Both the position numbers and the translations under genes were made by a program. Positions 1,479 to 59,743 of a stretch of DNA of 64,000 nt are shown one piece after another. The notes under the pieces were generated by a model. It was not told the DNA's origin and did no database searches. It worked only from the letters and a program-made list of their open reading frames with translations. Source of the stretch: Squalus acanthias (lineage: Eukaryota); NCBI GenBank assembly GCA_030390025.1, contig JASTWF010000071.1, positions 930,001 to 994,000 of the forward strand, read 5' to 3'. The first letter of the stretch is position 1, and every line of letters starts with the position of its first letter.

Positions 1479-1850
<372 letters not shown>

Positions 1851-14218: not shown

Positions 14219-14640
14219 GTGTCAGCTGTGGCTCAGTTGGTAGCACCCTAACTCGGAGTCAGAAAGTTGTGGCTGATACTGAGGGAGTGCTGCACTGTTG
14301 GAGGTGCTGACTTTCGGATGAGACATTAAACCGAGGCCCCGTCTGCGCTCTCAGGTGGATGTAAAAAGATCTCACGGCACTATTTCTAAGAAGAGCAGGG
14401 GGAAGTTATCCCCGCCCGGTATCCTGGCCAATATTTATCCCTCAACCAACATCGCTAAAAAAAAATTATCTGGTACATGATCACATTGCTGTTTGTGGGA
14501 GCTTGCTGTGCGCAAATTGGCTGCTGTATTTTCTACATTATAACAATGGCTACACTTCAAAAAGTACTTCAATGGCTGTAAAGCACGTGGGACTTCCTGA
14601 GGTCATGAAAGGCGCTATATAAATGTAGGTCTTTCTTTAT
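14219..14640 (+). mobile_element. tRNA-derived Deu-domain SINE (SacSINE1-like)
   Basis: tRNA-like head TGGCTCAGTTGGTAGCAC, Deu core GGATGAGACATTAAACCGAGGCCCCGTCTGC...GGCACTATTT...AAGAGCAGGGG, and tail ...GAAAGGCGCTATATAAATG. Confidence 0.85.
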
Positions 14641-16004
14641 ATATTAAAAAGTCTAGTGCATATCACTTAGGGCAACATAACATCAAAAATATAGGAAGCC
14701 CCGCTCTTTATGCTGGTTCCTTCTATCATGGAGCCAGGAATTTTCAATGACAATCTGGAAGTTTCTCTTACTGATAGCAATGAATCTTAGGACGTGCCTA
14801 CTTACAACAATTGCAATTTGTGTCTTCAGACAAACAGGCCACTTAAACACTGCTCCACCTCAGAAGCAGGATAATATGAGGTATAATTTCTCACATTACA
14901 ACAGTGACTCTACTTCAAAGTACTTCATTGGCTGTAAAGCGCTTTGAGGCGTCCGGTGGTTGTGAAAGGCGCTATAGAAATGCAAGTCTTTCTTTTTCTT
15001 TTTATAACACTCTCGTCATTATAAGAACAGCATATCCTCCGTTTACTATAAGCAATTTGTGTTTAATTATATTTACACCTTTTCCCGACATCTTAACTGT
15101 ACTTAAATCAAGACTCATCGCATCATCTCCGACACGAACGCATTCAGTCCCAGCACCTCTCCTCATTTTGCACAATCCTCCCTGCCTTCCGCAATCCATG
15201 GGCTTTTAAAACCCAGGCTTCGAATCACAGAAACAATCCTTCTCCATTACCTTTGTCTTCTTCCCTAAAACTTTTGAACCTCGACCCTTCACCTCACCTG
15301 ACTTTCTTTCTTTTACCACCTGGATCACTGATGTGTCAAGTAAGCAGCGTTCGACACATTGCTTTTGATCACTAGACAATGTTGCAGTCAGCCAGTGAAA
15401 GATGCTCATTAACTCTAAAGAGGGCATGAGCTTGTGTAGGAAGTTAGAGCAGGTTGAAAGCAGCTCTCAAGTGGGGTTAGATTACTGCTGGGCCATTTTT
15501 TGTGCGTGGAAGGGGAGGAAGAACATTAATCCAAATTTAATCAACCAGCGGGGCAGGCAACTCAAAAAACGCTTTGTTCAAAATTAAACACCACGTTTCA
15601 AATGCAGCAGCACTTCTGAAAAATAGGGAGGTGAAACCCTGAAACTGTTTGCGCAAATTTGTGTTATTTAACAAAAATGGCTGGAATGCTTCAAAAGGGA
15701 GAGAAATTGTCACTTAAATTCAACAGCCACTTGTCTTAAAGGGGAGATGCACATATTTGAATCACCAAATTGTCATTAGTATAGAGATAAACGAATGATT
15801 TACATTTATAAACCGCCTGATCATGCCTCAGAATCATCTTCAAGCACTTCACATATATTGAATTACGAGGAACTACAGTGATTTATATAGCCTAATGCAG
15901 TAGTCATTTTGGTCACAGCAAGAATGATCCCACAAATAATGACAGACCAGTTAATCTGGGTTTTTTTTGGTGGTGTCGATTTAGGGAGAATGTTGGTCAG
16001 GATA

Positions 16005-16245
16005 CCAACTGCACAGTTCTGGTCTTGAAAAAATATTTACAAGGATGATACCAGATCGGAGAGGTGATACCTATCAAGGAAGATTGAACAGGCTGGGGCT
16101 CTTTTCTCCAGAAGAGAGAAGGCGGAGGGGTGACCCGATAGAGGTCTTCAAGATTATGAAAGGGTTCGACAGGGTTGACGTGGAGATGTTTCCACTTGTG
16201 GGGGAGACCAAAACTAGGGCCATAAATATAAAATAGTCACTAATA
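16005..16245 (+). mobile_element. CR1 LINE ORF2 3' fragment (left half; continues at 18089)
   Basis: ORF 16045-16236 reads RLNRLGLFSPEERRRRGDPIEVFKIMKGFDRVD. It breaks at GTCACTAATA and resumes as ACTAATAAATCCAATAGGGAATTC at 18089. Confidence 0.85.
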
Positions 16246-17545
16246 GAAACATAGAAGATAGGAGCAGGAGTAGGCCATTCGGCCCCTCGAGCCTGCTCCG
16301 CCATTCAATGAGATCATAGCTGATCATCCAAATTCATTACCCTGTCCCTGCTTTCTCCCCATATCCCTTGATCCCTTGCGCCTTAAGAAATATATCTAAC
16401 TCCTTCTTGAATATATTTAATGAATTGGCCTCAACTGCCTTCTGTGGTAGAGAATTCCACAGGTTCACCACTCTCTGGGTGAAGAAATTCCTCCTCATCG
16501 CTGTCCTAAATGGCTTACCCCTTATCCTTAGACTGTGACCCCTGGTTCTGGACTCCCCCGCCATTAGGAACATCCTTCCTGCTTCTAGTCTGTCTAGTCC
16601 AGTTAGAATTTTATAAGTTTCAATGAGATCCCCTCTCATTCTTCTCAACTCCATCGAGTATAAGCCCAATTGCCCCAATCTCTCTTCATAAGTCATTCCT
16701 GCCATCCCAGGTATCAGTCTGGTGAATCTTCGCTGCACTCCCTCCATGGCAAGAACATCCTTCCTCAGATAAGGTGACCAAAACTGCACACAATACTCAA
16801 GGTGTGGTCTCACCAAGGCCCTGTACAACTGCAGCAAGACATCCTTGCTCCTGTACTCGAATCCTCTCGCTATGAAGGCCAACATACCCTTTGCCTTTTT
16901 AACCACCTGCTGCACCTGCATGCTTACCTTCAACGACTGGTGCACAAGGACTCCCAGCACTTTCCCTTTTCACAATCTATTGCCATGCAGATAATAATCT
17001 GCCTTCCTGTTTTTGCCACCAAAGTGGATAACCTCGCATTTATCCACATTATACTGCATCTGCTATGCATCTGCCCAATCACCCAACTTGTCCAAATCAT
17101 ACTGGATTTTCTCTGCATCCTCCTCACAACACACACGCCCACCCAGCTTTGTGTCGTCTGCAAACTTGGAGATATTACATCTAGTTCCCTCGTCTAGATC
17201 ATTAATATATATTGTGAATAACTGGGGTCCTAGCACCGATCCCTGCCGTACCCCACTAGTCACTGCCTGCCACTCAGAAAAAGACCCGTTTATTCCAACT
17301 CTTTGCTTCCTGTCTGCCAACCAGTTCTCTATCCAAGTCAGTACCTTACCCCCAATCCCATGTGTTTTAACTTTGCACGCTAATCTCTTATGCGGGACCT
17401 TATCGAAAGCCTTCTGAAAGTCCAAATACAGCACATCCACTGGTTCTCCCTTATCTATTCTACCAGTTACATCCTCAAAAAACTCCAGATTAGTCAAGCA
17501 TGATTTACCTTTTGTAAATCCATGTTGACTTTGTCCGATCCTGTC
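16246..17545 (-). mobile_element. 5'-truncated, relatively young CR1 LINE (RT domain plus C-terminus, few frameshifts)
   Basis: ORF 17063-17587 has QHGFTKGKSCLTNL...YLDFQKAFDKVPH...QGSVLGPQLF...KFADDTK. ORF 16337-16960 has LYRALVRPHLEYCVQFWSP. Flanked by the 10-bp duplication GTCACTAATA (16236-16245, 17543-17552). Confidence 0.95.
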
Positions 17546-17557
17546 ACTAATAAATCC

Positions 17558-18088
17558 GAAGTCGCACAACACCAGGTTATAGTACAACAGTTTTATTTGA
17601 AATCACAAGCTTTCGGAGCGCTGCTCCTTCGTCAGGTAAAGTGAAGGAATACAAATCAGCAAAGCATATATAGAGAGAACAATGTGTAGCGTACAATGTC
17701 AGACGACTACAGTAAATCTTTCTGACTGCCCTCCATCACTCCTCGGCAGAGATACAATCAGGTCAGTCAGGAAGGCATTACATCAAAGACACAGCAGAAT
17801 ACAGCTAAGACAATGAGGTGGGGTCACAGGGGGTCCAACGTGTCAAATGCTGCAGTCTGTATGGTTAAGCTTTTTACTTTTTAAAAAAAAACTGGAAATC
17901 ACATCTGTGAACAAGCCAACGACGACTCGAGTCTGGATGACTCTACGTCATGTAGCGTGACATGAAACCAAGATCCCGGTTGAGGCCATCCTCATGAGTG
18001 CGGAACTTGGCTATCAGTTTCTGCTCGATGATTTTGCGTTGTCGTGTGTCTCGCAGCCCGCCTTGGAGAATGGCATCTCCGCATCATG
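17558..18088 (-). mobile_element. Truncated Penelope-like retroelement (GIY-YIG C-terminal remnant plus terminal repeat with hammerhead ribozyme)
   Basis: Minus strand 18071-17943 encodes ILQGGLRDTRQRKIIEQKLIAKFRTHEDGLNRDLGFMSRYMT*, an E..I...T...GLN motif like the GIY-YIG end of Penelope-like elements. Hammerhead core at 17603-17639. 12-bp duplication ACTAATAAATCC at 17546-17557 and 18089-18100. Confidence 0.8.
17603..17639 (-). ncRNA. Minimal hammerhead ribozyme motif
   Basis: Minus strand reads UUAC CUGACGA A GGAGC AGC GCUCC GAAA GC UU GUGA: conserved core, 5-bp stem II, palindromic AAGCUU stem III and stem I UUAC/GUGA. Confidence 0.75.
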
Positions 18089-18330
18089 ACTAATAAATCC
18101 AATAGGGAATTCAGAAGAAACCACTTTATCCAGAGAATGTGGAACTCACTACCACAAGGAGTTCAGGTAAATATTATAGATGCATTTAAGGGGAAGCTAA
18201 ATATACACGAGGGAGAAAGGAAGATGCTGATGGGGTTAGATGAAGAGGGTGGGGAGGAGGCTCACGTGGAACATAAACACCGGCATGGACTAATTGGGCC
18301 GAATGGCCTGTTTCTGTGCTGTATATTGTA
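18089..18330 (+). mobile_element. CR1 LINE 3' end (right half of the element starting at ~16005)
   Basis: NKSNREFRRNHFIQRMWNSLPQ...IIDAFKGKL, then tail GGGCCGAATGGCCTGTTTCTGTGCTGTA. Confidence 0.85.
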
Positions 18331-18875
18331 CGTGATACCGAGCGAACTCGCTGATCTTGAAATAGTGCTGCACATCCACCAGAAGAGGCAGGTGGGCTTT
18401 CACTTTAATCGCCACTTTCAGATTTTTTTTCTAGCATTAATTCATTATAACGTATATCCATCATATGTGGGTCAGAAGGCCTCTTTGAAGGGAAGAAAAT
18501 GGAAGGACAAAAAACAATAACTCTCAGGACATATGCAAACCCATTCCTGTAACCCACAAGTGTACATGAGCTTTACATAGCACCCACTCCTGCAAACATT
18601 GTATCCAAAGAACAGTTACTCCCTCAGGTCTACACTGCAATGTTGGCCAAGACTATTGGCTCAAGTCTTAGAGAGGGGCTTGAACCCACAACCTTCTGAC
18701 TCAGAGCAATGAGTCCTACCAACTGTTATCCAGCTGTTAGTGAATAATTCGGACAAAGGGTCTCCACCTGAAATACCAACTCATTTTGCGCTTTCATTTT
18801 TTAAATATATTTCCAGCATTTTGTGTTTCTATTTCAGATTTGTGACATTCCTAAGCTTTCTCTAATCGCCTCTAC

Positions 18876-19574
18876 CAGGGGTTGCCAACTCTGGCTGAAT
18901 ATATTCCTGGAGGTTTCATCGTATAACATCCTGCCCCCAACTGCCCTGCCCCCACACGCCCATCATTAGTCACCCAGCACATACATTCTTGTTGTGCCCA
19001 GCCTTCCCATGGCCAATTGAAAAGCAAAGGCCCTTCAATCCCCAATTGGCTGATTCCGTCAGTCCAACAGCCTTCTTCCCCATCGCCAATATTTTTATAA
19101 CTATTAAACAGACCTGTTCAAAGAAAATAAATAACACATTTTTCTTTAAAGCGCCTCGGAGTCAGAAGGTTGTGGGTTCGAGTCCCATTCCTGAGACTTG
19201 AGCACAAAATCTAGGCTGACACTCCAGTGCAGTGCTGAGGGAGCGCTGCACTGTCAGAGGTGCTGTCTTTCGGCTGAGTCGTTAAACCGAGGCCCCGTCT
19301 GCCCTCTCGGGTGGATGTAAAAGATCCCACGGCACTATTTCAAAGAAGAGCAGGGGAATTATCCCTGGTGCCCTGGTCAATATTTATCCCTCAATCAATA
19401 TCGCAAAAAAAAAATGACCTGGTCGTCATCACATTGCTGTTTTGTGGGAGCTTGCAATATAAATGTAAGTTTTCTTTTTACTATTTTTCTCCCGAGATGC
19501 TCGCAGCAACATCCAGGAGATTAATCTTCAGCTCCTGGAGACTCCAGGCCAATCATGGAGGGATGGCAACCCTA
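18876..19574. mobile_element. hAT-type MITE interrupted by a Deu-SINE (~19153-19480)
   Basis: TIRs CAGGGGTTGCCA...TGGCAACCCTA with 8-bp TSD GCCTCTAC (18868-18875) / GCCTCCAC (19575-19582). Internal Deu core AAACCGAGGCCCCGTCTGCCCTCTC. Confidence 0.75.
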
Positions 19575-20064
19575 GCCTCCACTGGGTGAGAGAATCAGTG
19601 CAAACAGATACTCGGTACATAAGAATGCCCAGATCCACTCTATGACAAAACCAGTGACCCCCAGCAGTTTGTTGCAGGAGCTTCAAGGTTCTACAGATGT
19701 CGAGTAGGAACAATGATGGAATAATAGCAGTGGGGGGGGGCGCGGCGCTCAGGAAACGGTTGAACTGGCTTTGTGTTGCCTCCCAGAAGAGACTCTGCTC
19801 AAGAATCCTCCCCCAGCAAGTAGACAGCTTGCTGTTCTACACAATGAAAAAGTCTACCTCACAGTACTGACACCAGCTAATCATGCAGAGGCAGCTGCAA
19901 TGGAAAATAGAGCTGAAGTGGGGGGAAATAATGGCCTCACTTCAATTAGAAAATTCCTTTCAATTCGGATGCGTTTCTGGAATATGGGGAGGGAAGGGGC
20001 AGAGTAACAACAGGCCGGCTGGCAAATACATGACATTCCTACCCAAAGTGAGATAACAACAATT

Positions 20065-20840
20065 TGCATTTATATAACACCAGTAATGTAGAATAACGTT
20101 CTGAGGCGCTCTACAGAGGCATATTCCGACAAAGTGGACACCCAGCAAAAGGAGATATTAGAAGGGGTGATTAATAGCTTGGTCAAAGAGGTGGGTTTTA
20201 AGGAGGGTGTTAGAGGTGAGGGAGGTGGAGATGTGGAGGGAATTCCAGAGCGTAAGACCAAGATTTCTGAAGGCACGGCTGCCAATGTTGGGGTGAAGGG
20301 GGATGGCACAAGAGACCAGCATCAGAGGAACGCAAAGTTCAGAAATAGGGAATGGGAGAAGCCATTAAGGGATTTAAACACAAGGACAAGAATGTTAAAT
20401 TAGGAGCCAACTTTGGCCAGCGAGACGATGGCAGCAGGCGAGTAGGACTCGACAGGATACGGCCAACGGCTTTGGATAAGCTGGTTTGTGAAGGGTGGAA
20501 GGTGGGAGGCCAGCCAGCAGAGTATTGGAATAGTCAAGTCTGGAAGTGGCAAAGGCATGGATGAGAGTTGGAGCAGTAGATGGGCTGAAGCCGGGGGCAG
20601 GTGGACAGATGATGTTACGGAGGTTGAAGTATGCAGTCTTGGTGATGGAGAAGATAGTGGGAGCTCAGCTCGGCACCAAATAGGAGAGTGAGGTTGTTTC
20701 AACCCAAGGCAATGACTGAGGAGGGGGATGGAATCGGCGGTGAGGGTAGGGAGATTGTGGCGGGGGCCGAAGATGATAACCTTAAACTTTCCTAATGTTT
20801 TAACTCGAGGAAATTGTGGCTCACCCAAGACTGGATGATG
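20065..20840 (-). mobile_element. Decayed L2 LINE 3' fragment
   Basis: CAACAATTTGCATTTATATAACACC tail and AGCTTGGTCAAAGAGGTGGGTTTTAAGGAG match the reverse complement of the L2 at 46590-47440. Confidence 0.75.
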
Positions 20841-22122
20841 ACATGGTCAAAGGGGCAGGAGGTAGATGAGGAACTTGCAAGGAAACAGGAAAACTACCAA
20901 GAACCATCTACAGCAACACTGAAAATTTTCAGTCTTATTAGTGAAGGGGAAAAAGAACACCAGCTTATAATGCAAAAGTAAAAAGTTAAGATATTGAACC
21001 TTAGAAACAAGTCACGGATATGCGTATTATTGAATGTTTAGGCTAATGTGAAAGCAACTAATGCAACCTGAATTTTTTTTTTTTTAAAGCCATGCAGATC
21101 ACAAGGTCCCAGGTTTGATCCCCAGTCTATGTTGAGTTAACAGACCTCAATTGGGCAGTGCAACCGGCTTCAGCACCGTGGGCTGGTGAGAAGGAAGAGG
21201 TTGGGGAAACAGAACTAAGGTTGCTGATTCGGATCGCTGTCTGGTGATCCCCTGCTGGACAGTGCGGGTGCGCGCACGTCCAATGAGGAAAGGACCATCC
21301 GCAGGTGATAGCTTCCGTGGTAATAGCCTGTTGACACTCACACAGAGAATGGCCACGTGGCTGAGGTACCAGAGAGTTTGGTGGGGGGGGGGGGGGTGGG
21401 GTGTGAGGAGTGGTACCCACCATCTCAGCACTTTCAGGAAAGGAGGGGAAAAAATACCATCTCAATTTATTTCACAGCTCTCAGTGGACATTTTTTGGTG
21501 ATTGTTTATTACAAAACACATGCAAACCTATTCTGCTAATGGCACATCCTGTGTTACATGCAAACCTACATTGTACTAATTTTGGTTCTCTTACAAACAC
21601 TCTGCTAATGGCACATCCTGTGTTCGCAGAAGGACATCAAGTACCCGAGTACCCATGGTAACTCGATTGTTTTCTCTACTACGGATGGCCCCATGGGATA
21701 ACTAACATTGACGCAATGGCAAAAATGAGTAGTTTTCTAGAGAGCGAGATGGTGTTAAAATCCCCTTAGCAACAGCTGCAATCATTGCCAATTTACAACT
21801 TACACCTTGGGAAACCTCAGCAGAGAAAATTATTAATAGTTTCTAGCCCCCAAAAACCTGGGAAGGGAATGGTTAGCAACAGCGGTGCAAATGATTTAAG
21901 GCTAAGGTGAAGCCGAGGGTTAAATCTCCAGGAAGCAAAGATGGGAATACCAGAGTAGCAATCGCCATTACAGAGCATCGCAATCAACCCCAACTCCTCG
22001 TCTTTGTGGTAACTTTGGTGTCTCTAAGAAAGGTATACAGAAATCTCCAATTATGGTGCAGACAGACTGTCAAGAAGGTGCAGTGCAGATTCACCAGAAT
22101 GATACCTGGGCTAAATTATGAG

Positions 22123-22496
22123 AGGTCGCACAACACCAGGTTATAGTCCAACAGTTTTATTTGAAATCACAAGCTTTCGGAGCTATCGATTTGCTCCTTC
22201 CTCAGGTGAAGTAAATTAGATACAGAATCTCCAAAGCATATATAGATGGAAAACAAAGAATGTGTACTTTACAATTGCAGACCAATAAATTAAATCATCC
22301 TGACTATCTGCCGAGGTGTGATAAAGCTAATGCTTTGGAGATTCTGTATCTAATTTACTTCACCTGAGGAAGGAGCAAATCGATAGCTCCGAAAGCTTGT
22401 GATTTCAAATAAAACTGTTGGACTATAACCTGGTGTTGTGCGACCTCTCAATTTTGTCCACCCCAGTCCAACACCGGCATCTCCGCATCATGACCA
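22123..22496. mobile_element. Penelope-like terminal-repeat insertion forming a perfect 121-bp inverted repeat
   Basis: Arms 22119-22239 and 22330-22450 are exact reverse complements and belong to the same family as 17558-17640. 12-bp duplication CTAAATTATGAG at 22111-22122 and 22497-22508. Confidence 0.85.
22360..22402 (+). ncRNA. Minimal hammerhead ribozyme motif (mirror copy on - strand at 22167-22209)
   Basis: UCAC CUGAGGA A GGAGC AAAUCGAUA GCUCC GAAA GC UU GUGA. Confidence 0.75.
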
Positions 22497-23138
22497 CTAA
22501 ATTATGAGGACAGGTTGCAGAAACTAGGTTTGAAGATTGAGGTGTTTATGATGATTAAAGGATTCAATAGGGTAGATAGAAACTATTTCTTCTCGTGGGA
22601 AGAAATTAGGACAAGGCAGCATCATAAAATTAGAGTCAGGCCATTCAGGGGTGATGTCAGGAATCTCAAAGAGTGGTGGAAACTTGGAACTCTTCCCCCA
22701 AATAGCTGTTGAGGCTAGATCAATTGGAAATTTCAAAATTGAGTGATTGATTATTGTTAGGTAAGGGTATTGAGGGTTACAGAGCTAAAGCAGGTAAATT
22801 GAGTTAAGATACAGATCAGCTGTGATCTAATTGAATGGCGGAACAGGCTCGAGGGGCTGAACGGCCTCCTCCTGTTCCTATGTTCTAAGTACCCTCTATG
22901 TTCTAATGCTATAATGTTGAATATGCACAGCAGTTTTTTTTTTTATAAACACAGCAACCAATATTTTCCTGATCCCAGCCATGCAAAACCACTTCATGAA
23001 GCGCCTCCGATTCCTTCTGCAACAGAAACTGCCCATTTACATTGGACATTAGAATAGAAAAGCTACACGCAAATAGGTTGCCGCTCGCAGTTTTGAAGCT
23101 GCAATTTGCAAATTTATTGCCGGTTGTCATGCCTTTCT

Positions 23139-23493
23139 CAGTGCTGTCCAATACCGTAGCCACTAGCCATGTGTGGCTATAATTGGGAATCCAGATGTGG
23201 CTAATGGCATTTCCAATTTGAAAATAAAATCCTTAGGCATGTGATCTCAATACTCGTTCGTATGCATGTGTTTGTGTGTACTTCAACCTTTGTAAAAAGG
23301 AGACCCCTAAAGCAGTGTACGAGTGCTCTTTCATTGTTATGAGTGCTTTAATTCCTTGGTTACTGAATGGTGATACATGTTGGTTAAGTAAAGATACACA
23401 TGTATTATCAGCATCGGTATCATTGGCATGTATAGAGTTTTCCACTAAAATTAGTGCATGTGGCTAGTCAGAAATTTCTATTGGACAATACTG
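23139..23493. mobile_element. hAT-Charlie-like non-autonomous DNA transposon (MER3/MER33-like)
   Basis: TIRs CAGTGCTGTCCAATA / TATTGGACAATACTG with subterminal GTAGCCACTAGCCA..TGTGGCTA repeats. No clear TSD remains. Confidence 0.7.
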
Positions 23494-23502
23494 GTATATG
23501 AG

Positions 23503-23983
23503 GGTCTCGGTAGCATAGTGGTTATGTTACTGGACTAGTAATCCAGAGGCCTGGACTAAGGATCCAGAGGCGCGAGTTCAAATTCCACCATGGCAGCTGG
23601 GGAATTTAAATTCAGTTAATTAAATAAATCTTGGGGGGGGGGGGGGGGGCGGAGAGAAAACACTAGTCTCAGTAAAGATGGCCATGTTGTAAAAACCCAT
23701 CTAGTTCACTAATGCCCTTTAGGGAAGGAAACCTGCCGACTTACCCGGTCTGGCCTATGTGACTCCAGACCCACAGCAATGTGGTTGACTCTTAACCGCC
23801 CTCAAATGGCCCAGCAAGCCACTCAGTTGTATCAAATCGCTACGAAAAACAATACCTTCACCACACAGGACTGCAGCGGTTCAAGGCGGCGGCTCATCAC
23901 CACCTTCACAAGGACAATTAGGGGATGGGCAATAAATGCTGGTCTTGCCAGCGACGCCCACATCCCAGGAACGAATAAAATAA
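23503..23983 (+). mobile_element. tRNA-derived SINE with a 3' tail shared with the LINE at 48200-49240
   Basis: A-box-like TAGCATAGTGG and B-box GAGTTCAAATTCC. Tail CACCACCTTC...CAATTAGGGGATGGGCAATAAATGCTGG...CGCCCACATCCC..GAATAAAA. Confidence 0.75.
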
Positions 23984-25569
23984 AAGATCAAGTGGGAAAA
24001 CTGTTTGACTGGCCTTTACAGGCAGGCTGTGCTGCAACGCCTGGGAATAAGAGTTGGTGCTACCTCTGGAGGCATCCACAGTGATCATCTCTTTTCATTA
24101 GCCTCAGAATCTCCAGAGACAGCAACGCTGCCTCATTTACTTTACCAAGCTGACACCAACCTGTGCTTGCCGTCAGTGGCCTCTGCGGTAACGTGAACAG
24201 AGTAATAAATGGCTCAGAAGAGCACCAGTCCGAGCAAGATTCGCCTCGAGTTCCTGAATGGCTGTCCAAAATTATTAATGAAATTTCCTTCAACTCTAGC
24301 ATGGCCCGGTGCCTCTCCAATCTAATAAGTGAAGGCCTGTTCAATCATTTTGGTTGGAAGCACCGCCTGCACTTGCAAACGAGGCTTTACTGATCCCACT
24401 GATGAAGATATGCTATCAAGACAACGAGAGAGAAAGAAACAAAAACAAAACACGCATTATTCATTCCAGCTCCATCCACCAGTTTATTTTGTTTTGTCAC
24501 CATTTGGTATTCATTGAACGCTGTGCAATTTTACGAGATCATGGCAGCACGTGATTGTAAACAGCTGACAGGACAGACAGGCGCTGAAGAGGGGGGGGGG
24601 GGAAACAACTGGCAATGTTTGGTCACCTCTGGAAAGACGTCTGATAAAAAAATACAATGATCCTATTTCAAAAAATTTTAAGACACGATTGTTTGGTCAC
24701 AGACACTGGAAGGAATACAAAAGCTGGGTTTGACTCAAGTGCAATAAAGGTGCAACTGGGGACTCCTGGGTGTGTGCTTGAATCAGATTTGCCTCGATAG
24801 ACTGGTTGGGAGGGAAGAGGGACAGTAAGCCATGTGGGAAGCACAATTGAGCAGCAAATCAACGAGACCAAAACCCACTAGGCTGTAAGATCAGAGCGTT
24901 AACTGCTACACAAGGCAACCCATTTATTACAAATTCTCAAGTGGTATATACCTTCTGGGTACCACTGTCATTATAGAAGAACAAAGAGGCAAAAAAAAAC
25001 TCAGATATTTGCCTCTCGGAAGAAAAAAAACCCCCTGGAAATCGGTTCCACTCTGCCTGAATCCAGCCAGCTGAGTACTGAGCGACACTGACATTTGTTA
25101 GAGAAACCTGTCACCCAAACTGCCAAGGTCTCCCATCGAGGGAGGACTGCGAGGTTCCGAGCGTTTACAAAAAGAGAGCAATTGTGCGGGGGGTGGGGGT
25201 GGGGGGGGGGGGGGGTGAGTAAAATAACTGTCAAAACAAAATTTTAGCAAAGACATTAGTTGGTTATGATATCATTTCAGTACTTTCACATTTAGGATTT
25301 TTCTAACATTAATATTTTGTGGGACCTGCCTTCTTGGGGGGGGGGGAGGGAGGGAGAGGGAGGCAGTGAGAGAGAAGAAAGGAAGAACATTCTTCATAAA
25401 CTATGACTAGGTTGAGGAAGCAGCATGCACACAATCTCGAGCCCAGACCTGAACTAGATTTTTTTTTTTTTAAATGTGACTTACGACTCCTTCACAGGAA
25501 CACCGATAGCCAACTGCACACACAGCAGTGCCAATCAGCCCCATTGATTTTCTCCTCTAAACTTTATAA

Positions 25570-27094: not shown

Positions 27095-27235
27095 TCACAG
27101 TTCATCGTGGTCTGAGCCTCCTTCGTCCATTTCCTCCTGGCAAAGGGCTGGTGTTGAAAACTCCATCAGGTATTCACAGCGGCTGGGCTCTGATGTGGAT
27201 AACACAGCAGTCTCTTTGCCACAAGACAACTTAAC
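27095..27235 (-). CDS. PRKCSH: PRKCSH last coding exon (MRH domain end plus HDEL)
   Basis: AG|VKLSCGKETAVLSTSEPSRCEYLMEFSTPALCQEEMDEGGSDHDEL*TGA. The exon continues 24 nt to a GTGAGC donor at 27070. Confidence 0.96.
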   Translation of the reverse strand, partial: VKLSCGKETAVLSTSEPSRCEYLMEFSTPALCQEEMDEGGSDHDEL

Positions 27236-27334
27236 CTGTTAGCAATTGAAATGATATTAAAGCCATGCTCATTCAGCCAGGCTAAAGGTTAAAGTAGCCT
27301 GCACTTTTTATGCATTTGTTCCCTCCATTTTGGT

Positions 27335-27975
27335 GACAGATGGGCTCAGTGGTAGCGCACTCATCTCTGGGTCAGGTGGTCATGCATGGGTTCAAGCCCT
27401 TGACCAGAACTTAAGCACATAACTGAGGTTGATACTCAATTCATTACGGAGCAAGTGCTGCACTGTCGGAGCTCATTTGTGCACAGCAAGGTACCACAAA
27501 CAGCAATGAGTGATTGAGGGACAAATGTTGGCCAGGGCACCAGGGAACTCTGCTCTTCATCGAGTTAACAGCACAGAAACAAGCCATTTGGCCCAACTGG
27601 TCTGTCGGCGTTTATGCTCCACACAAGCCTCCTCCCACGATACTTCATCTAACCCCATCAGCATAACCTTCTATTCCTCTCTTCCCCATGTACTTATCTA
27701 GCTTCCCCTTAAATACATCTATGCTATTTGCCTCAACTACTCCTTGTGGTATCTTCTTTGGAAAAAGTGCCACGGGATCCTTTATGTCCATCTGAACAGG
27801 CGGGGCCTTGGTTTAATGTCTCATCCTAAAAGACAGCGCCTCAGTCAATGCAGATATCCTTCAGTACTGCACTGAGGCAGCAACCTGGATTATATGCTCA
27901 AGTAATGGTGTGGGACTTGTACCCACGACCTTCCACCTCAGAGCCAAGTGCTAGCAACTGAGCCATAATGACACC
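27335..27975. mobile_element. Composite: Deu-SINE head (+), Deu-SINE (-), and an inserted CR1 tail (~27560-27750)
   Basis: GGCTCAGTGGTAGC...GTGCTGCACTGTCGGAG on +; reverse Deu core AGTGCCACGGGATCC...CCTTGGTTTAATGTCTCATCC; CR1-like CAGCACAGAAACAAGCCATTTGGCCCAAC. Confidence 0.7.
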
Positions 27976-28090
27976 GAACTGACTTGCAACAAAATGACTG
28001 CCTATAGAATCACCTGCATCTTCTGTTTCTCACGCACGTGACAACAAACTATCCACTGTGCTGCACAAATACAAATCTAGATGCACTTAC

Positions 28091-28190
28091 CAAAGTGGAT
28101 CTGTTTGGCCCCTGCCAACAGCCAGTACCATGTTCATACTTCATCATACTAAACTTATTGCTTTCTGGTCCAGCCCAAGAACCCCACAAG
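28091..28190 (-). CDS. PRKCSH: PRKCSH coding exon (MRH domain)
   Basis: AG|(G)LWGSWAGPESNKFSMMKYEHGTGCWQGPNRSTL|GTAAGT, 100 nt. Confidence 0.96.
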
Positions 28191-28267
28191 CTGCAAGCAC
28201 ACAAAAAAAAAAGCTATTAATACATTCCAACAACATAAGTGTGCTTGTTGCAAAATGAACTAAATTA

Positions 28268-33412: not shown

Positions 33413-35644
33413 TACACGTGTAGCATTAAATTTCCTGGTAATCAACTGCAAATTTCTCAAATCAACTTGATGTAATGGTTTAAAATCATTGATCCTTTAG
33501 TGCAATTGTCACGCAATGACAGAGCTCACTGACCACACAAATGGACCCATAACTGGAAACATTAAGAGGATATTCTTTAAAATTAAAGATTTTTTATAAA
33601 AGTACTGCAATAGATAACACCACATGTCCCTCCATTCGCCTTGGGTGGCACAGACACCTCTTCCCTCTTTCAAAACCCTCTTGGACCATACTTAGAGACA
33701 CCTCCCCAACCTCTTCCCACCACGATTTGGCGGCCATTATTGCCTCTGCGAAGCGCTTTGGTACATTTTACAATGTGGATTGAGTGTCAATTTGTTGCTG
33801 TTATCACACTGACAAAGTACTCATACTACAACTAATATTTACATAGTGCTTCTCACAATGAAAAGCACTTGGCAAGGTAGGACCTGATCTAAAAAGAGGG
33901 TAGAAAAATTTAGGTGGGGGGGGCAGGGAAGAAGGGAGAAAAACTGAAGATATGACAAAAGAGAGAGGCTGTTTAATAGGCTTCTGAAGATAATGAGAGA
34001 GAAGGCAAAGTAATCAAGATGGGAATATTCCAAGGGGCAGTGATGGAGCAACTCAACGAATAGCCTTTAACAATGAATTAAATGAAATGCACTTCAGCCT
34101 CAAGTTTATTTATGGTGTCAAGAATTGGAAGCGTTTGCTCAGTTTCCCCTCAGCACTTGTATGCAAGCACCTCGCCTCCATTTGTAATGGAGAAACTGAA
34201 GAAACAACTCGCTAGTCCCATCACCCTCTCCTCCCACTAACAAGCTGTGCCGCCATGGTGACTAGGAATATCAGCAAGAAATAATTCACTTTGGAAATTC
34301 ATAGATTCATAAAGACACAGCTTATTTTGAAAGCTGAAAAGATTTTCAAGTGTTAGGAAGGCCAACAAGCTTCACTGCACAAAGTACAAATGTATACAAG
34401 GGGGAACAAGAGTGAATGCTGAAAGTAAGGAGTTACCACAAATATCTTAACTTGATGATTTGGTTCTGTTTCATAGAGTACTGCAATGGCAGGAATGCTG
34501 CAAGGGGATTAAAAAAAAAGTTACCAACGGTCATTAACTTTGACAGCATTTTGTCTATTTGGGGGTTTTTTTTAAAAAAAAATATGAAACATAATCCCAG
34601 TTTAAGCAACCAAGTCTCACAATGACACCCTGGAGGAGTTACTGACAGATAGTGCAAGGCAGCTGAATTACCAAGAGATGGTCATTATCCAGAGGTGCTT
34701 CACTGATCTTGTCATTTTGACCGGGAGAGATTCCAGATTAATCCAGCTCCCCCGCACCATCAAGAATCACAGCTCCTCCAAATCAGTTCTCCTAATACCA
34801 TCAGCACCGACTGCTGAAGCAAAAGGTACGCACACCATCCCTATCTCAGATGTCAGAAAAATATTTACTGAAAAATGGCATGATCAGTTTTACTGATGCT
34901 AAATTTGCTCTCAGTATGTGGGAAACTCTGGCAAGGCCATATTTTCCAGTTTATCCTACGTGCTGGTGGGAAGGTCTCCCATTACTGCATACAAACTTCA
35001 GACTTTTAAACTCAACCCTGAAGCCAATATATATGTAAGGGTCAACCAGAACATCTGTCATAATGTTGGGTTCTCAAATAACTAAAATCACAGGATTCTG
35101 TCAAGGTTCAAAAATCCTGGAAGCTATGAAAATCTTATGAGCCCATATAATCTCATGATATTTCTACTGCTCCACAATATCACCACCAATTAGGGGGGCT
35201 GCAGACCAGAAGTTATCAGCTAAGCATGCCAAAATTCTGCATCCATCCAAACAGAGGGGGTCAAATCACATACAGTGCAGCTTACCGTCCAACCACCGTT
35301 ACCCTACAGAACCGTGTGCCTGCCCAATACGGAAATATGAAAAAAAGGACCGAATAAAAGAAGAACTACATAGTAGCAGTGGTCGATTGAAACAGAGCTA
35401 TGCTGACAGGCTGACCAACAAAAAGAGGTCGGCAGATGAGGTATGATGGGATGGTATCTGCAGAATCCTGGTAAACACAGCAACCTTCAACCAGCTGCTG
35501 TTAATCGTCCATCTAAATACAAGAGTTTCATTTAGTGCTTTTAGTAAATCATGCAATAGCCACAAGTGAACTGCCCTATTGCAGATAGGGAGAGGGGGGG
35601 GGGGGGGTGTGATCGGATTGTGAGGGAGAGAGGAGGGATCGAGA

Positions 35645-35826
35645 NNNNNNNNNNNNNNNNNNNNNNNNNNNNNNNNNNNNNNNNNNNNNNNNNNNNNNNN
35701 NNNNNNNNNNNNNNNNNNNNNNNNNNNNNNNNNNNNNNNNNNNNNNNNNNNNNNNNNNNNNNNNNNNNNNNNNNNNNNNNNNNNNNNNNNNNNNNNNNNN
35801 NNNNNNNNNNNNNNNNNNNNNNNNNN
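35645..35826. other. Assembly gap (182 N)
   Basis: Run of n characters, preceded by G/GA-rich low-complexity sequence. Confidence 1.
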
Positions 35827-43649: not shown

Positions 43650-44070
43650 GGACTTGCAATAACATCGCACCTTTTACCTCCAGACATCTTAAAGCACTTC
43701 ACAGCCAACCAATTACTTCTGAAATGTAGTCATTGTTATGTAGGCAAATGCAGCAGCCAGTTTGCACAGTTATGATGAATGACTGGTTAATCTATTTTTG
43801 GTGACGTCAGTCGATGAATAAATAAATGTTGTCCAGGACACCTGGGCAACTTCCATGCTCTTCTCCGAACAGTGCCACTGGATCTTCGATATCCACCAGA
43901 GGTCGCCTCGATTTGACGCCGTATCGGAAAGACAGTACCGCTGGCGATGCTGTACTCACTCAGTGCTGCATTGGAGCGTCAGCCTACAGGATATTCTCGA
44001 GCCCAGGAATGGGGCTTGGAACCAACGACCTTCTGACTCGAAAGGGGAGCGTGCTACCAATGAGCCACGT
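43650..44070 (-). mobile_element. Diverged Deu-domain SINE
   Basis: AAAGCACTTCACAGCCAA...CAGGACACCTGGGCAACTTCC...GACCTTCTGACTCG...GTGCTACCAATGAGCCAC. Confidence 0.7.
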
Positions 44071-56880: not shown

Positions 56881-57292
56881 CTGTATCTTTCTATGATTCT
56901 ATCAGTTGCCATTTAGCTGGCAAAATAGTGAAGGATAAAGTACAATTCTCTTTTTGTGGATCAGCTGCGCAGCACCAGAGAGGTGGGGGTTTTTTTTTTC
57001 CCTCTACTGTCGACAAGCCAGAATGCTTAGGGGCAGTCATAGCAAGGCAGCTGCCATGGTTACAGTTAGTGCTTGCTGATTGAAAGACTGAGTACACAGC
57101 TCTTAACTGCTGGTGGTATGTGGCAAACTAGCTCTCGCTTGACCATTATCTCACACATAAAGAGCATCTCTCTTCTGCTGTTTTGAGCCTCATACACTGT
57201 GTAATATTCCCAAGTGAATTTAATGTGCCCAATTTTTATGCATTTAAATCCTGTTGTGCAAGCAAACAACTACCTCGCTTTTCTTTAATTAC

Positions 57293-57493
57293 CTTAGAAT
57301 CTTCTTCGCCTCCATCATCCTCATCCTCCTCCTCCTCTTCATCATCAACACTGTCATCATCTTGCTCCTCGCCACCACCACCATCGTCGCCGTCGTGGTC
57401 ATCCTTCCGCCATTCATCACGGTGCAATTTCGCATTGCTGTCTGCCCCCTCTTCCACAGGAATATCTGGGGGAGTTGGGCTTTCAGTGACTGC
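57293..57493 (-). CDS. PRKCSH: PRKCSH coding exon (Pro/acidic tract)
   Basis: AG|AVTESPTPPDIPVEEGADSNAKLHRDEWRKDDHDGDDGGGGEEQDDDSVDDEEEEEDEDDGGEEDSK|GTAATT, 201 nt, phase 0-0. Confidence 0.9.
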
Positions 57494-58072
57494 CTGTCAG
57501 AGCAAAGGAAAAGCTGGTCTGAACAGAAAGCCTGTGGCTCAGCAAGGTGCAAACAATGCAGATGTACTAAACTAAAAAATATTTTAATGCCTTGAGCGCC
57601 AACTCCCCCGATGGCCTAGTAGGTAAAGGCACCTGCCAGTGTCGGATTAAGCCACAGGAGGCAGAAAGGCCAGAGTGCAACTCTCTGGGTGTGCGGAGTT
57701 ACCTGATCAAAGTAGAGCCAACAGTCAGGGCACTATAATTGGTCCGAACACCCAACATTCCCTCTAAGCTGCGCAGCAACTACATTAGGAAAGTAAAAAA
57801 TGTAACAGAATTCCCACTCCCAATTGCTATCCAGTGACTCCAACATGGGTCAGTGTCAAATGGCTCTCCATGTCCAAACAGCCTCCCAACCCTGACCATC
57901 TAGGCTCGTACTTGTCAAACACCCATTTGAGTGAGGGTAATCAGCATCCAGAGAACCATACCTCAACAAGAAAGCATAAAGCGTGCATGACATACGTAGC
58001 AAATTTAATACATTAGATAGCTATATGTGGCGTATCTTTGATCCAATTTGTATTCAAATGAAATTCACCAAC

Positions 58073-59284: not shown

Positions 59285-59743
59285 CTTTATAAAAAAGACT
59301 TGCATTTCTAGAGCGCCTTTCACAACCACTGGACGTCTCAAAGCGCTTTACAGTCAATGAAGTACTTTTGAAGTGGAGTCACTGCTGTAATGTGGGAACG
59401 CAGCAGCCAATTTGAGCACAGCAAGCTCCCACAAACAACGATGTGATAATGTTTTAGTGATGTTGATTGAGGGATAAATATTGGCCAGGACACAGAGGAT
59501 AACTCCCTTGCTCTTCTTCGAAATAGTGCCGTGGGATCTTTTACGTCCACCTGAGAGAGCAGACGGGGCCTCGGTTTAACATCTCATCCGAAAGACGGCA
59601 CCTCCGACAGTGCAGCACTCCCTCAGCACTGCACTGGAGTGTCAGCCTAGCTTTACGTGCTCAAGTCCCTGGAGTGGGATTTGAACCCACAACCTTCTGA
59701 CTCAGGAGGCGAGTGTGCTACCCACTGAGCCACGGCTGACACT
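59285..59743 (-). mobile_element. Full-length, low-divergence Deu-domain SINE
   Basis: Reverse complement has the complete head (GTGTCAGCCGTGGCTCAGTGGGTAGCAC...GGGTTCAAATCCCAC), Deu core and tail (GAAAGGCGCTCTAGAAATGCAAGTCTTT). Confidence 0.9.

What the first reader, a model, noticed from the sequence alone, without database searches (positions are those of the whole stretch)
17558..18088. Penelope-like element with GIY-YIG remnant and an intact minimal hammerhead ribozyme
Seen: a stop-free 42-aa C-terminus (…EQKLIAKFRTHEDGLNRDLGF…) below the ORF-track cutoff, followed on the same strand by CUGACGA-stemII-GAAA-GC-UU with a palindromic AAGCUU stem III and then AATAAA. The other end carries GCATCTCCGCATCATGAC in opposite orientation, the same tail seen at 22478-22494. 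Established: Penelope-like elements encode RT plus GIY-YIG endonuclease and carry minimal hammerheads thought to cleave as dimers. Inference: a recently active shark family whose ribozyme has an uncommon CUU cleavage triplet.
Basis: partly seen in the sequence, partly recalled or inferred. Interest (0 to 1): 0.7.

Follow-up and report, generated by a model that had tools for sequence, protein, structure and literature searches.

The report
Shark Penelope transposon fragment with hammerhead
This is a broken 531-base copy of a Penelope-like jumping gene, most likely from a shark; its tiny, likely self-cutting RNA motif and flipped end-piece follow the published pattern for such elements, so it is an ordinary member of a known family.

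Summary
17558-18088 is a 5'-truncated Penelope-like element (PLE) between perfect 12-bp target-site duplications. The 42-aa peptide is about 93% identical to the endonuclease C-terminus of a Heptranchias perlo RT+GIY-YIG ORF with Neptune-type zinc-finger motifs. The hammerhead fits the published minimal PLE consensus at every position (3 hits in the window, 0 in 200 shuffles). The 'opposite tail' is the end of the PLE pLTR 'tail': it runs into the ORF start codon, and a second insertion at 22123-22496 shows it in its natural place. Both insertions have the known layout of one tail-less inverted arm plus one tailed arm, likely from priming at two RT start sites. CUU is a minority triplet but already published (3 of 56 PLE hammerheads; U17 in 24 of 56). 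The pairing palindrome is AGCU, not AAGCUU. 'Recently active' is only weakly constrained, given slow shark mutation rates. Cleavage is untested, and stem II covariation could not be tested with two independent copies. Verdict: a new member of a known kind, low interest.

The parts
17546..17557 (+). Left target-site duplication of the PLE (ACTAATAAATCC); overlaps the right TSD of a neighbouring CR1 insertion
   Evidence: 12/12 identical to 18089-18100; about 2e-5 by chance allowing 5 nt of slack at each boundary
17558..18072 (-). Long arm: 5'-truncated PLE copy (ORF end, 3' UTR, pLTR with hammerhead) that stops 49 nt after the predicted ribozyme cut and lacks the tail
   Evidence: aligns with both arms of copy 2 at 80-84% and ends at the same place within 4 nt
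17943..18071 (-). Last 42 codons plus stop of the PLE ORF: last strand and helix of the GIY-YIG endonuclease, including the EQKL glutamate and the GLN asparagine (their catalytic role is inferred from family knowledge)
   Evidence: 93% identity to H. perlo P0003, E 4.8e-16; tblastn 38/42; model of relative P0008 residues 190-279 aligns to I-TevI 1ln0_A, Z 6.7, rmsd 2.9, 78 residues
17715..17775 (-). Predicted 3' UTR hairpin (-23.3 kcal/mol; no shuffle control); the matching region is where the two arms of copy 2 join
17640..17672 (-). TATA-like TATATAT (17672-17666) and initiator-like TCACT (17644-17640), 21 nt apart; putative pLTR promoter, untested
   Evidence: the same pair with a 20-bp spacer is described for A. 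vaga Pen2a (PMC3846280); TATATAT is kept in copy 2 (22244-22238), TCACT is not
17603..17639 (-). Minimal type I hammerhead motif; predicted cut between 17607 and 17606 (triplet CUU); helix III possible only as an AGCU/AGCU dimer
   Evidence: descriptor hit, 0 in 200 shuffles; 9 of 9 pairs formed in both independent copies; fits the consensus in PMC4209133 Fig. S3
17592..17597 (-). AATAAA, 9 nt after the predicted cut; part of the AU-rich 3' flank of PLE hammerheads; function as a polyadenylation signal untested
   Evidence: no poly(A) at the end of either insertion
18072..18088 (+). Short arm: the last 17 nt of the pLTR tail, ending in the ORF start codon (ATG 18086-18088), in opposite orientation to the long arm
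   Evidence: 19/19 match to 22476-22494; reads HLRIMT, as in H. perlo P0136 HLHIMTTIDT
18089..18100 (+). Right target-site duplication; the first 2 nt (AC) could also come from the element
22111..22508 (.). Second insertion of a related subfamily: TSD CTAAATTATGAG (22111-22122 / 22497-22508); tail-less inverted arm 22123 to about 22312 (-); tailed arm about 22330-22496 (+); hammerheads at 22205 (-) and 22364 (+); 46-nt tail 22451-22496 with ATG at 22490-22492; target is a CR1 piece
   Evidence: the CR1 frame reads RMIPGLNYE on the left and LNYEDRLQKLGL on the right
15988..18330 (+). Host CR1 LINE 3' fragment (CR1-A), split into 15988-16245 and 18089 to about 18330 by the PLE and by a second CR1
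   Evidence: the frame ends GHKYKIVTN on the left and resumes TNKSNREFRRN on the right
16246..17542 (-). Second CR1 insertion (CR1-B) with TSD GTCACTAATA (16236-16245 / 17543-17552) at almost the same target site as the PLE
   Evidence: Pfam RVT_1 E 3.5e-20; TSD

Best explanation
This is a 5'-truncated insertion of a Penelope-like retrotransposon, likely of the Neptune clade and likely from a shark, which likely arose when both ends of a 12-nt staggered cut primed reverse transcription at two neighbouring internal sites of uncleaved element RNA. Shown: 12-bp TSDs; a 515-nt arm (end of the endonuclease ORF, 3' UTR, hammerhead) that stops 49 nt after the predicted ribozyme cut; a 17-nt arm in the opposite orientation that ends at the ORF start codon; and the same layout, with longer arms, at 22123-22496. 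Inferred: the element's RT-endonuclease, supplied by a full-length copy elsewhere, nicked both strands of an AT-rich site. One 3' end primed at the proximal site and gave the long tail-less arm. The other primed at the distal site, at the AUG, and made only 17 nt before the two cDNAs were joined. All three hammerhead-bearing arms run through the predicted cut site, so the template was uncleaved or re-ligated RNA. The hammerhead would cleave slowly and only as an AGCU-paired dimer or with help from the element's protein, in tandem transcripts of active copies. This lone, intergenic copy cannot encode the protein and is probably inert.
For: Peptide hits: 20 of 21 candidates at E<=0.01; the named ones are shark proteins, with P0003 (RT plus endonuclease, 643 aa) at 93%. 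P0003 carries ADKGG, RYIDD, the linker CHSNLCKTC (CX4CX2C) and VVYLIRC-x3-C-x4-YIG with downstream H...H. This matches the CX2-5CxxC plus CCHH definition of Neptune/Nematis, and the linker is absent from Penelope/Poseidon (PMC8557442). The survey of 35 species found Neptune and Poseidon across five vertebrate classes and reported no Nematis. Pfam GIY-YIG hits 7 of 18 alignment members at E<=0.01. The tail reads QHRHLRIMTT against VHHRHLHIMTT in H. perlo P0136 (9/11), and Mustelus P0137 begins MTTIN. An inverted 5'-truncated copy plus a 30-40 bp tail at one end is the described PLE layout (PMC8557442; PMC3846280; PMC2377424). Purified Anolis Poseidon cuts and extends both strands, starts RT at two internal sites that bracket the tail, uses uncleaved RNA, and needs protein for hammerhead cleavage (PMC11167929). 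Distances agree: distal start 98-99 nt after the cut here against 82-89 nt in Anolis (my count). Between the two subfamilies the changes fall in N7, loop II and one U-G/C-G stem I pair, and the core is unchanged.
Against: No cleavage, transcript or transposition data. Only two independent copies were available, and no genome of this species could be searched. The clade call rests on motifs in relatives, not on a tree. The focal peptide alone has no Pfam GIY-YIG hit. Pfam scores for relatives were weak (P0008 21.7 bits against a cut-off of 22.6; P0003 none). The structure model is of modest confidence (pLDDT 58.5), Foldseek gave nothing at E<=0.001, and Z 6.7 lies in the range that the tool warns can be a common arrangement. 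Folding z-scores of the hammerhead regions are not significant (-0.4 to -1.3). The tail here (46-51 nt) is longer than the published 30-40 nt. The twin-priming model was shown for a Poseidon element, not for Neptune.
Confidence: 0.85

Rival explanations
1. The element is as described, but the hammerhead in this copy or subfamily is a weakened passenger that does not cleave in vivo.
For: U17 triplet and a 4-bp stem I with two G-U pairs. The 6-bp AAGCUU duplex (-4.3 kcal/mol) is predicted to be more stable than the 4-bp AGCU duplex (-2.5) and would tie up core residues A14 and U17. The unconstrained dimer fold swaps stem II instead of forming helix III. Minimal PLE hammerheads cleave poorly in vitro even as dimers (PMC4209133). 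Ribozyme-dead mutants still insert, and no RNA-seq ends were seen at the cut in Anolis. Naiad PLEs spread without canonical hammerheads.
Against: The core is intact in two subfamilies that differ by 16-20%, with changes at tolerant positions. U17 occurs in 24 of 56 natural PLE hammerheads.
Confidence: 0.3
2. The hammerhead mainly serves translation: in tandem copies it sits in the 5' UTR, and cleavage yields an uncapped mRNA that is translated, while uncleaved RNA serves as the RT template.
For: The first AUG after the predicted cut is the ORF start, 91 nt downstream, with A at -3. A TATA/initiator-like pair lies just 5' of stem I. Self-cleavage by type I hammerheads in viral 5' UTRs drives cap-independent translation, and HDV-like ribozymes are cited for a similar role in non-LTR elements (PMC13725137).
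Against: No data for any PLE. In Anolis Poseidon the cut lies inside the ORF, so cleavage would remove the start codon there. The viral motifs have a full helix III, which this motif lacks.
Confidence: 0.12
3. The unit is a non-autonomous short element (a retrozyme monomer or SINE-like family) that moves with this fixed structure, rather than a chance truncation of a full-length PLE.
For: Non-LTR retrozymes derived from pLTRs are reported in one chondrichthyan, with a mean length of 363 bp (bioRxiv 10.64898/2026.07.22.740005).
Against: It carries an open ORF end cut in mid-domain. The two insertions have different arm lengths and junctions. There is no tandem array in 15000-24000, and each strand of an insertion has only one hammerhead.
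Confidence: 0.05
4. The motif has been co-opted by the host, as a cleavage or termination signal for read-through from the convergent neighbouring genes.
For: The hammerheads at 17635 and 22205 are both on the minus strand, the sense strand of the PRKCSH-like gene whose last exon ends near 27095, and both carry AGCU.
Against: They lie about 5 and 9.5 kb past the stop codon, inside nested LINE fragments. No conservation or expression evidence was obtained.
Confidence: 0.03

Closest known systems
Neptune-clade Penelope-like elements (EN+ PLEs with CX2-5CxxC linker and CCHH motif; PMC8557442)
   Same: [quoted passage not shown]
   Different: Only the last 42 codons remain. The targets here are AT-rich CR1 sequence, not (TA)n microsatellite. 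The tail is 46-51 nt. No tree was built.
Poseidon PAc of Anolis carolinensis (PMC11167929)
   Same: Two internal RT start sites bracket the tail, at similar distances from the hammerhead cut; AT-rich targets; insertions read through the uncut ribozyme.
   Different: In PAc the ORF starts inside the hammerhead and the tail lies about 110 nt into the ORF, with triplet GUC. Here the hammerhead is 91 nt upstream of the AUG, the tail ends at codons 1-3, and the triplet is CUU.
Penelope of Drosophila virilis and Pen2a of Adineta vaga (PMC2377424, PMC3846280)
   Same: [quoted passage not shown]
   Different: The D. virilis motif has a short canonical-like helix III and an intron. No intron is evident here.
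Minimal PLE hammerheads (PMC4209133), especially the Chrysemys picta and Philodina roseola motifs
   Same: CUGANGAH, G10.1-C11.1, no helix III, a palindromic 15.2/16.2 pair, GAAA-GC-UU core, U-rich 5' and AU-rich 3' flanks.
   Different: No chondrichthyan is among the 56 listed motifs. Stem II is 5 bp with a 3-nt loop (9 nt in copy 2).

Membership tests
EN+ Penelope-like element | C-terminal GIY-YIG endonuclease of PLE type | tested here: met
   Peptide 93% identical to the C-terminus of P0003, which has VVY-C-C-YIG and H...H; GIY-YIG in 7 of 18 alignment members; weak structural match to I-TevI. The GIY and YIG motifs themselves are truncated away in this copy.
EN+ Penelope-like element | Telomerase-related RT in the same ORF | tested here: inconclusive
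   Absent from the window (tblastn). Present in relatives: RVT_1 E 5.2e-9, ADKGG and RYIDD in P0003. No PDB sequence match at E<=0.1, and no tree.
EN+ Penelope-like element | pLTR with inverted 5'-truncated arm and tail at one end | tested here: met
   2 of 2 insertions in the window
EN+ Penelope-like element | Target-site duplication, no poly(A) tail | tested here: met
   12/12 TSDs at both insertions; host CR1 frames overlap across the duplication
Neptune clade | CX2-5CxxC linker upstream of GIY-YIG plus CCHH motif, endonuclease C-terminal | tested here: met
   Linker motif in 6 of 6 relatives checked (P0003, P0008, P0009, P0010, P0023, P0025). That region is missing from the window copy, and the motif is shared with Nematis.
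Neptune clade | RT phylogeny with reference Neptune elements | not testable with these tools
Minimal type I PLE hammerhead | Core CUGANGA, extra nucleotide 9.1, G10.1-C11.1, GAAA-NN-UH, stems I and II | tested here: met
Minimal type I PLE hammerhead | Palindromic positions that allow an intermolecular helix III | tested here: met
   AGCU is self-complementary, with a predicted duplex of -2.5 kcal/mol
Minimal type I PLE hammerhead | Covariation in stems among copies | tested here: inconclusive
   2 distinct sequences: 0 compensatory pairs, 1 one-sided change (U-G/C-G), stem II invariant. The genome-collection scan gave no further copy.
Minimal type I PLE hammerhead | Self-cleavage (dimer-dependent or protein-assisted) | not testable with these tools
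   Needs an in vitro assay.
Rfam hammerhead families | Score above the gathering threshold | tested here: not met
   0 hits; a motif with no helix III is not expected to fit these models (inference)
Non-LTR retrozyme | Non-coding tandem repeats with a hammerhead in each unit | tested here: not met
   ORF remnant present; no such tandem array in 15000-24000

The most novel reading that the evidence does not exclude
In shark Neptune elements the hammerhead is a 5' UTR switch. Transcripts start just upstream of it, and slow dimer- or protein-dependent cleavage 91 nt before the AUG makes an uncapped, translated mRNA. Uncleaved RNA is the template, primed at two sites, one on the start codon itself, with short primer-template pairing. 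Because ribozyme, tail and ORF do not overlap here, this family would let the open question of what PLE hammerheads are for be tested cleanly.
Probability: 0.12. Interest if true: 0.65.

Novelty: new member of a known kind. Interest (0 to 1): 0.2.

Why it matters
As it stands it matters little: it extends a documented PLE hammerhead and tail architecture to a shark family. My searches found no paper describing that family, but repeat libraries such as Repbase and Dfam could not be checked. The useful detail is the 17-nt tail-only arm. It is a clear genomic footprint of the two-site priming shown in vitro for a Poseidon element, here in a likely Neptune element. It also places the distal start on the ORF's AUG. 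If the translation reading held, it would give a function to a very widespread ribozyme class.

Tried and rejected
Rfam: no hammerhead hit. Pfam on the 42-aa peptide alone: only MbeB_N at E 0.043, rejected as chance. PDB sequence searches with P0003 and with alignment A3: nothing at E<=0.1; the best of 6 weak rows was an RNA-directed DNA polymerase at E 0.49. Foldseek: no match at E<=0.001; I-TevI and UvrC GIY-YIG domains appear at ranks 16-17 with E 0.64. Scan of 185,579 prokaryotic genomes for the hammerhead pattern, in the hope of contaminating animal DNA: 1 match, in a Desulfobacterales contig with no stem II, taken as chance. The viral and metagenome contig collections were not searched, and cluster members of P0003 could not be listed, so copy number and species remain unchecked. 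More copies in the window: blastn, nhmmer and a relaxed core scan found none beyond the two insertions; two other core-like strings (26307+, 37844-) failed the descriptor. The first pair count used a mis-registered structure and was discarded; it was redone. An empty-site blastn found no window CR1 spanning either junction, so the empty sites were confirmed by reading frames instead. The bacterial promoter/terminator scan found 0 sites and is not relevant to a vertebrate. Primer-template pairing: overlaps of 4, 2 and 1 nt at three junctions (P about 0.014), and an extended gapped match at the proximal junction of copy 2 (44 of 5,986 random sites score as well; 35 of 2,093 AT-rich ones). The focal proximal junction showed none with a proxy template. 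This is post hoc and is kept only as a hint. AATAAA as a working poly(A) signal: not supported, since neither insertion ends in poly(A). Lunse et al. (RNA Biol, dimer cleavage) was not held by DOI or PMC id; I saw only its title in a reference list. Two paper searches for rate data on U17 or CUU gave nothing usable, so the statement that U17 is slower than C17 is recalled and comes from no call.

Full report
Context. The window is vertebrate DNA. An ELAVL-like last coding exon lies at 1479-1850 (+; RRM_1 E 7.9e-23; the gene name is recalled from its sequence). The last exons of a PRKCSH-like gene lie at about 27095-28195 (-; PRKCSH_1 E 3e-7 and 8e-5, ending HDEL). The finding sits between these convergent genes, about 15.7 kb and 9 kb from their stop codons. 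I found no exon between them but did not search for one exhaustively. The host is probably a shark, because the named hits to the peptide are Heptranchias perlo (81-95%), Mustelus asterias (80-83%) and Scyliorhinus torazame (80%). The species was not determined.

Observation. The minus strand carries 42 open codons at 17946-18071 and a stop. About 300 nt further on is CUGACGA-A-GGAGC-AGC-GCUCC-GAAA-GC-UU, closed by a 4-bp stem I and followed by AATAAA. A descriptor modelled on the published minimal hammerhead found 3 sites in the window (17635-, 22205-, 22364+) and none in 200 dinucleotide-preserving shuffles. Rfam has no match. The 18-mer at the other end is shared with 22477-22494.

The peptide. 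A search for longer relatives returned 20 hits among 21 candidates. The most informative is P0003 (H. perlo, 643 aa, 93%), which has RVT_1, ADKGG, RYIDD, a CHSNLCKTC linker and a VVY-C-C-YIG...H...H endonuclease. By PMC8557442 (passages), the CX2-5CxxC linker with CCHH and a C-terminal endonuclease marks Neptune or Nematis. Neptune is therefore the likely clade, though no tree was built. Direct domain evidence is modest. Pfam GIY-YIG hits 7 of 18 aligned proteins at E<=0.01, not the peptide itself. An AlphaFold model of the Mustelus relative P0008 (pLDDT 58.5) aligns residues 190-279 to the I-TevI catalytic domain (Z 6.7, rmsd 2.9, 78 residues, rank 3) and 159-280 to T4 EndoII (Z 5.2). Foldseek found nothing significant. 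The peptide corresponds to the last strand and helix of that domain. tblastn with six shark PLE proteins found no other ORF remnant in the window except the 11-residue match at the tail of copy 2.

Anatomy. The insertion is bounded by ACTAATAAATCC at 17546-17557 and 18089-18100. Inside are a 515-nt arm on the minus strand (17558-18072) and a 17-nt arm on the plus strand (18072-18088). A second insertion at 22123-22496, bounded by CTAAATTATGAG, explains the short arm. There an inverted arm and a direct arm are identical over 121 nt, but only the direct arm continues through a 46-nt tail that ends in the shared 18-mer. The tail-less arms of both insertions stop at the same place within 4 nt, 48-52 nt after the predicted cut. 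The tailed arms stop 2-8 nt into the ORF. In frame the tail reads QHRHLRIMTT, against VHHRHLHIMTTIDT in H. perlo P0136, and Mustelus P0137 starts MTTIN. So the tail is the 5' UTR end and start codon of the next unit of a tandem transcript. The first AUG after the cut is that start, 91 nt downstream. [quoted passage not shown]

Target. Both insertions sit in CR1 LINE 3' fragments, and the CR1 frames overlap across each duplication. The focal site was hit twice: a 1.3-kb CR1 on the minus strand (16246-17542) has its own TSD GTCACTAATA (16236, 17543), which overlaps the PLE's left TSD. The sequence fits either order of insertion.

Mechanism. PMC11167929 (parts 1-3 of 4; supplements 1-2 gave only figure lettering) shows that the Anolis Poseidon protein cuts and extends both strands at AT-rich sites. 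It starts RT at two internal sites that bracket the tail, uses uncleaved RNA, needs protein for hammerhead cleavage, and is predicted to be a dimer. The two shark insertions look like the genomic product of that reaction: one strand primed at the proximal site, the other at the distal site, and the two cDNAs were joined head to head. The distal start is 98-99 nt after the cut here and 82-89 nt in Anolis (my count). All three hammerhead-bearing arms cross the cut site intact, which fits an uncleaved template. These steps are inferred from anatomy. Short overlaps of 4, 2 and 1 nt between target and template at three junctions (P about 0.014) and one longer gapped match (0.7-1.7% of random sites) hint at primer pairing. 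The focal proximal junction showed none with a proxy template, and the test was post hoc.

The ribozyme. PMC4209133 (main text parts 1-2 of 4; whole supplementary PDF text) gives the consensus CUGANGAH-GNNNNN..NNNNNC-GAAAN-palindrome-NUH with U-rich and AU-rich flanks. The motif fits throughout. I counted the 56 motifs of Fig. S3 by hand from the extracted text, where the GAAA column is printed apart and the Hydra row is ambiguous. Position 17 is C in 25, U in 24, A in 6 and G in 1. The triplet CUU occurs in 3 (Philodina, Oikopleura, Chrysemys), and the turtle and rotifer motifs have the same GAAA-GC-UU core. None of the 56 is from a cartilaginous fish. So CUU is a minority form already in print. 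Helix III in a dimer would be AGCU/AGCU. The longer AAGCUU duplex is predicted to be more stable (-4.3 against -2.5 kcal/mol) and would mispair the core, and the free dimer fold swaps stem II instead. Between the two subfamilies all 9 pairs hold, with one U-G/C-G change and no compensatory change, while N7 and loop II (3 against 9 nt) vary. That fits selection on the fold but is only two sequences. The folding z-scores were not significant.

Age. In favour of youth: perfect TSDs, 121/121 identity between the arms of copy 2, an open ORF end, and CpG o/e of 0.76 against 0.37-0.43 in the flanking CR1 pieces; 2.4% of 579 other windows of the same length reach that value. Against a firm claim: 117 identical sites allow up to 2.5% divergence, or about 18 million generations at 7e-10 per generation (9-90 million across the paper's confidence interval; PMC10587355, passages). 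Inverted arms may also be homogenised. The starting CpG content of each family is unknown. The focal 3' UTR does not translate to the read-through C-termini of the H. perlo models P0002, P0013 and P0015, so it is a different subfamily or species.

Comparison and novelty. It works like a canonical EN+ PLE insertion and meets every membership feature that the fragment allows. RT phylogeny and cleavage were not testable. PLEs are already recorded in sharks (PMC8455134 and PMC4350176, passages). Searches for Penelope+shark+retrotransposon (15 papers), Penelope/chondrichthyan/Heptranchias (6), hammerhead+shark+ribozyme+retrotransposon (4) and Neptune+Penelope-like+shark (0) showed no description of this family in their listings. 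Repeat databases and subscription papers, including Lunse et al., were not available. PMC6765202, PMC8969392 and PMC6155905 were read as passages and agree with the general picture. The boldest reading not excluded is that the 5' UTR hammerhead drives translation of cleaved RNA, as shown for viral type I motifs (PMC13725137, passages). No evidence here tests it, and the Anolis layout argues against it being general.

Verdict. A real feature, correctly identified in outline: a new member of a known kind, interest 0.2.

Noticed in passing
window 16236-17557: A CR1 (16246-17542, -) and the PLE inserted into the same ~15-bp spot of an older CR1, with overlapping TSDs (GTCACTAATA and ACTAATAAATCC). 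It may be an AT-rich insertion hotspot; the order cannot be read from the sequence.
   Followed up: partly
window 22111-22508: Second PLE insertion of a related subfamily with a perfect 121-nt inverted repeat, two hammerheads (CUGAGGA, 9-nt loop II) and the full 46-nt tail.
   Followed up: yes
window 22295-22332: The junction between the arms of copy 2 contains a short sense piece that matches the focal 3' UTR hairpin region, followed by a jump to the TATA-like region: a likely template switch at the hairpin plus an internal deletion.
   Followed up: partly
window 22107-22122 and 22447-22462: The target strand of copy 2 resembles the start of the tail (4-nt exact overlap, then a gapped match); 44 of 5,986 random sites score as well.
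   Followed up: partly
window 17615-17627 and 22372-22390: Both stem II regions contain a 6-nt palindrome (AGCGCU in the focal copy, AUCGAU in the loop of copy 2), which could promote intermolecular pairing; this may be chance.
   Followed up: no
window 17635 (-) and 22205 (-): Two hammerheads with the same AGCU palindrome lie 4.6 kb apart on the strand of the PRKCSH-like gene, so a long read-through transcript could in principle carry both.
   Followed up: no
window 1479-1850 (+) and 27095-28195, 57289-57615 (-): Convergent ELAVL-like and PRKCSH-like genes; the acidic stretch near 57340 (-) is probably a PRKCSH exon.
   Followed up: partly
proteins P0002, P0015, P0037, P0009: Several RefSeq shark gene models (XRCC5, FAM204A and EPN2 isoforms, and a PYRIN-domain model) end in or include PLE ORF pieces: exonised PLE fragments or annotation artefacts.
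   Followed up: no
window 18618-18706, 19155-19243, 59617-59705, 14234-14272, 44011-44039: A dispersed repeat of about 90 nt (77-90% identical), probably a shark SINE.
   Followed up: no
window about 35600-35800: Assembly gap; the window holds 182 N.
   Followed up: no
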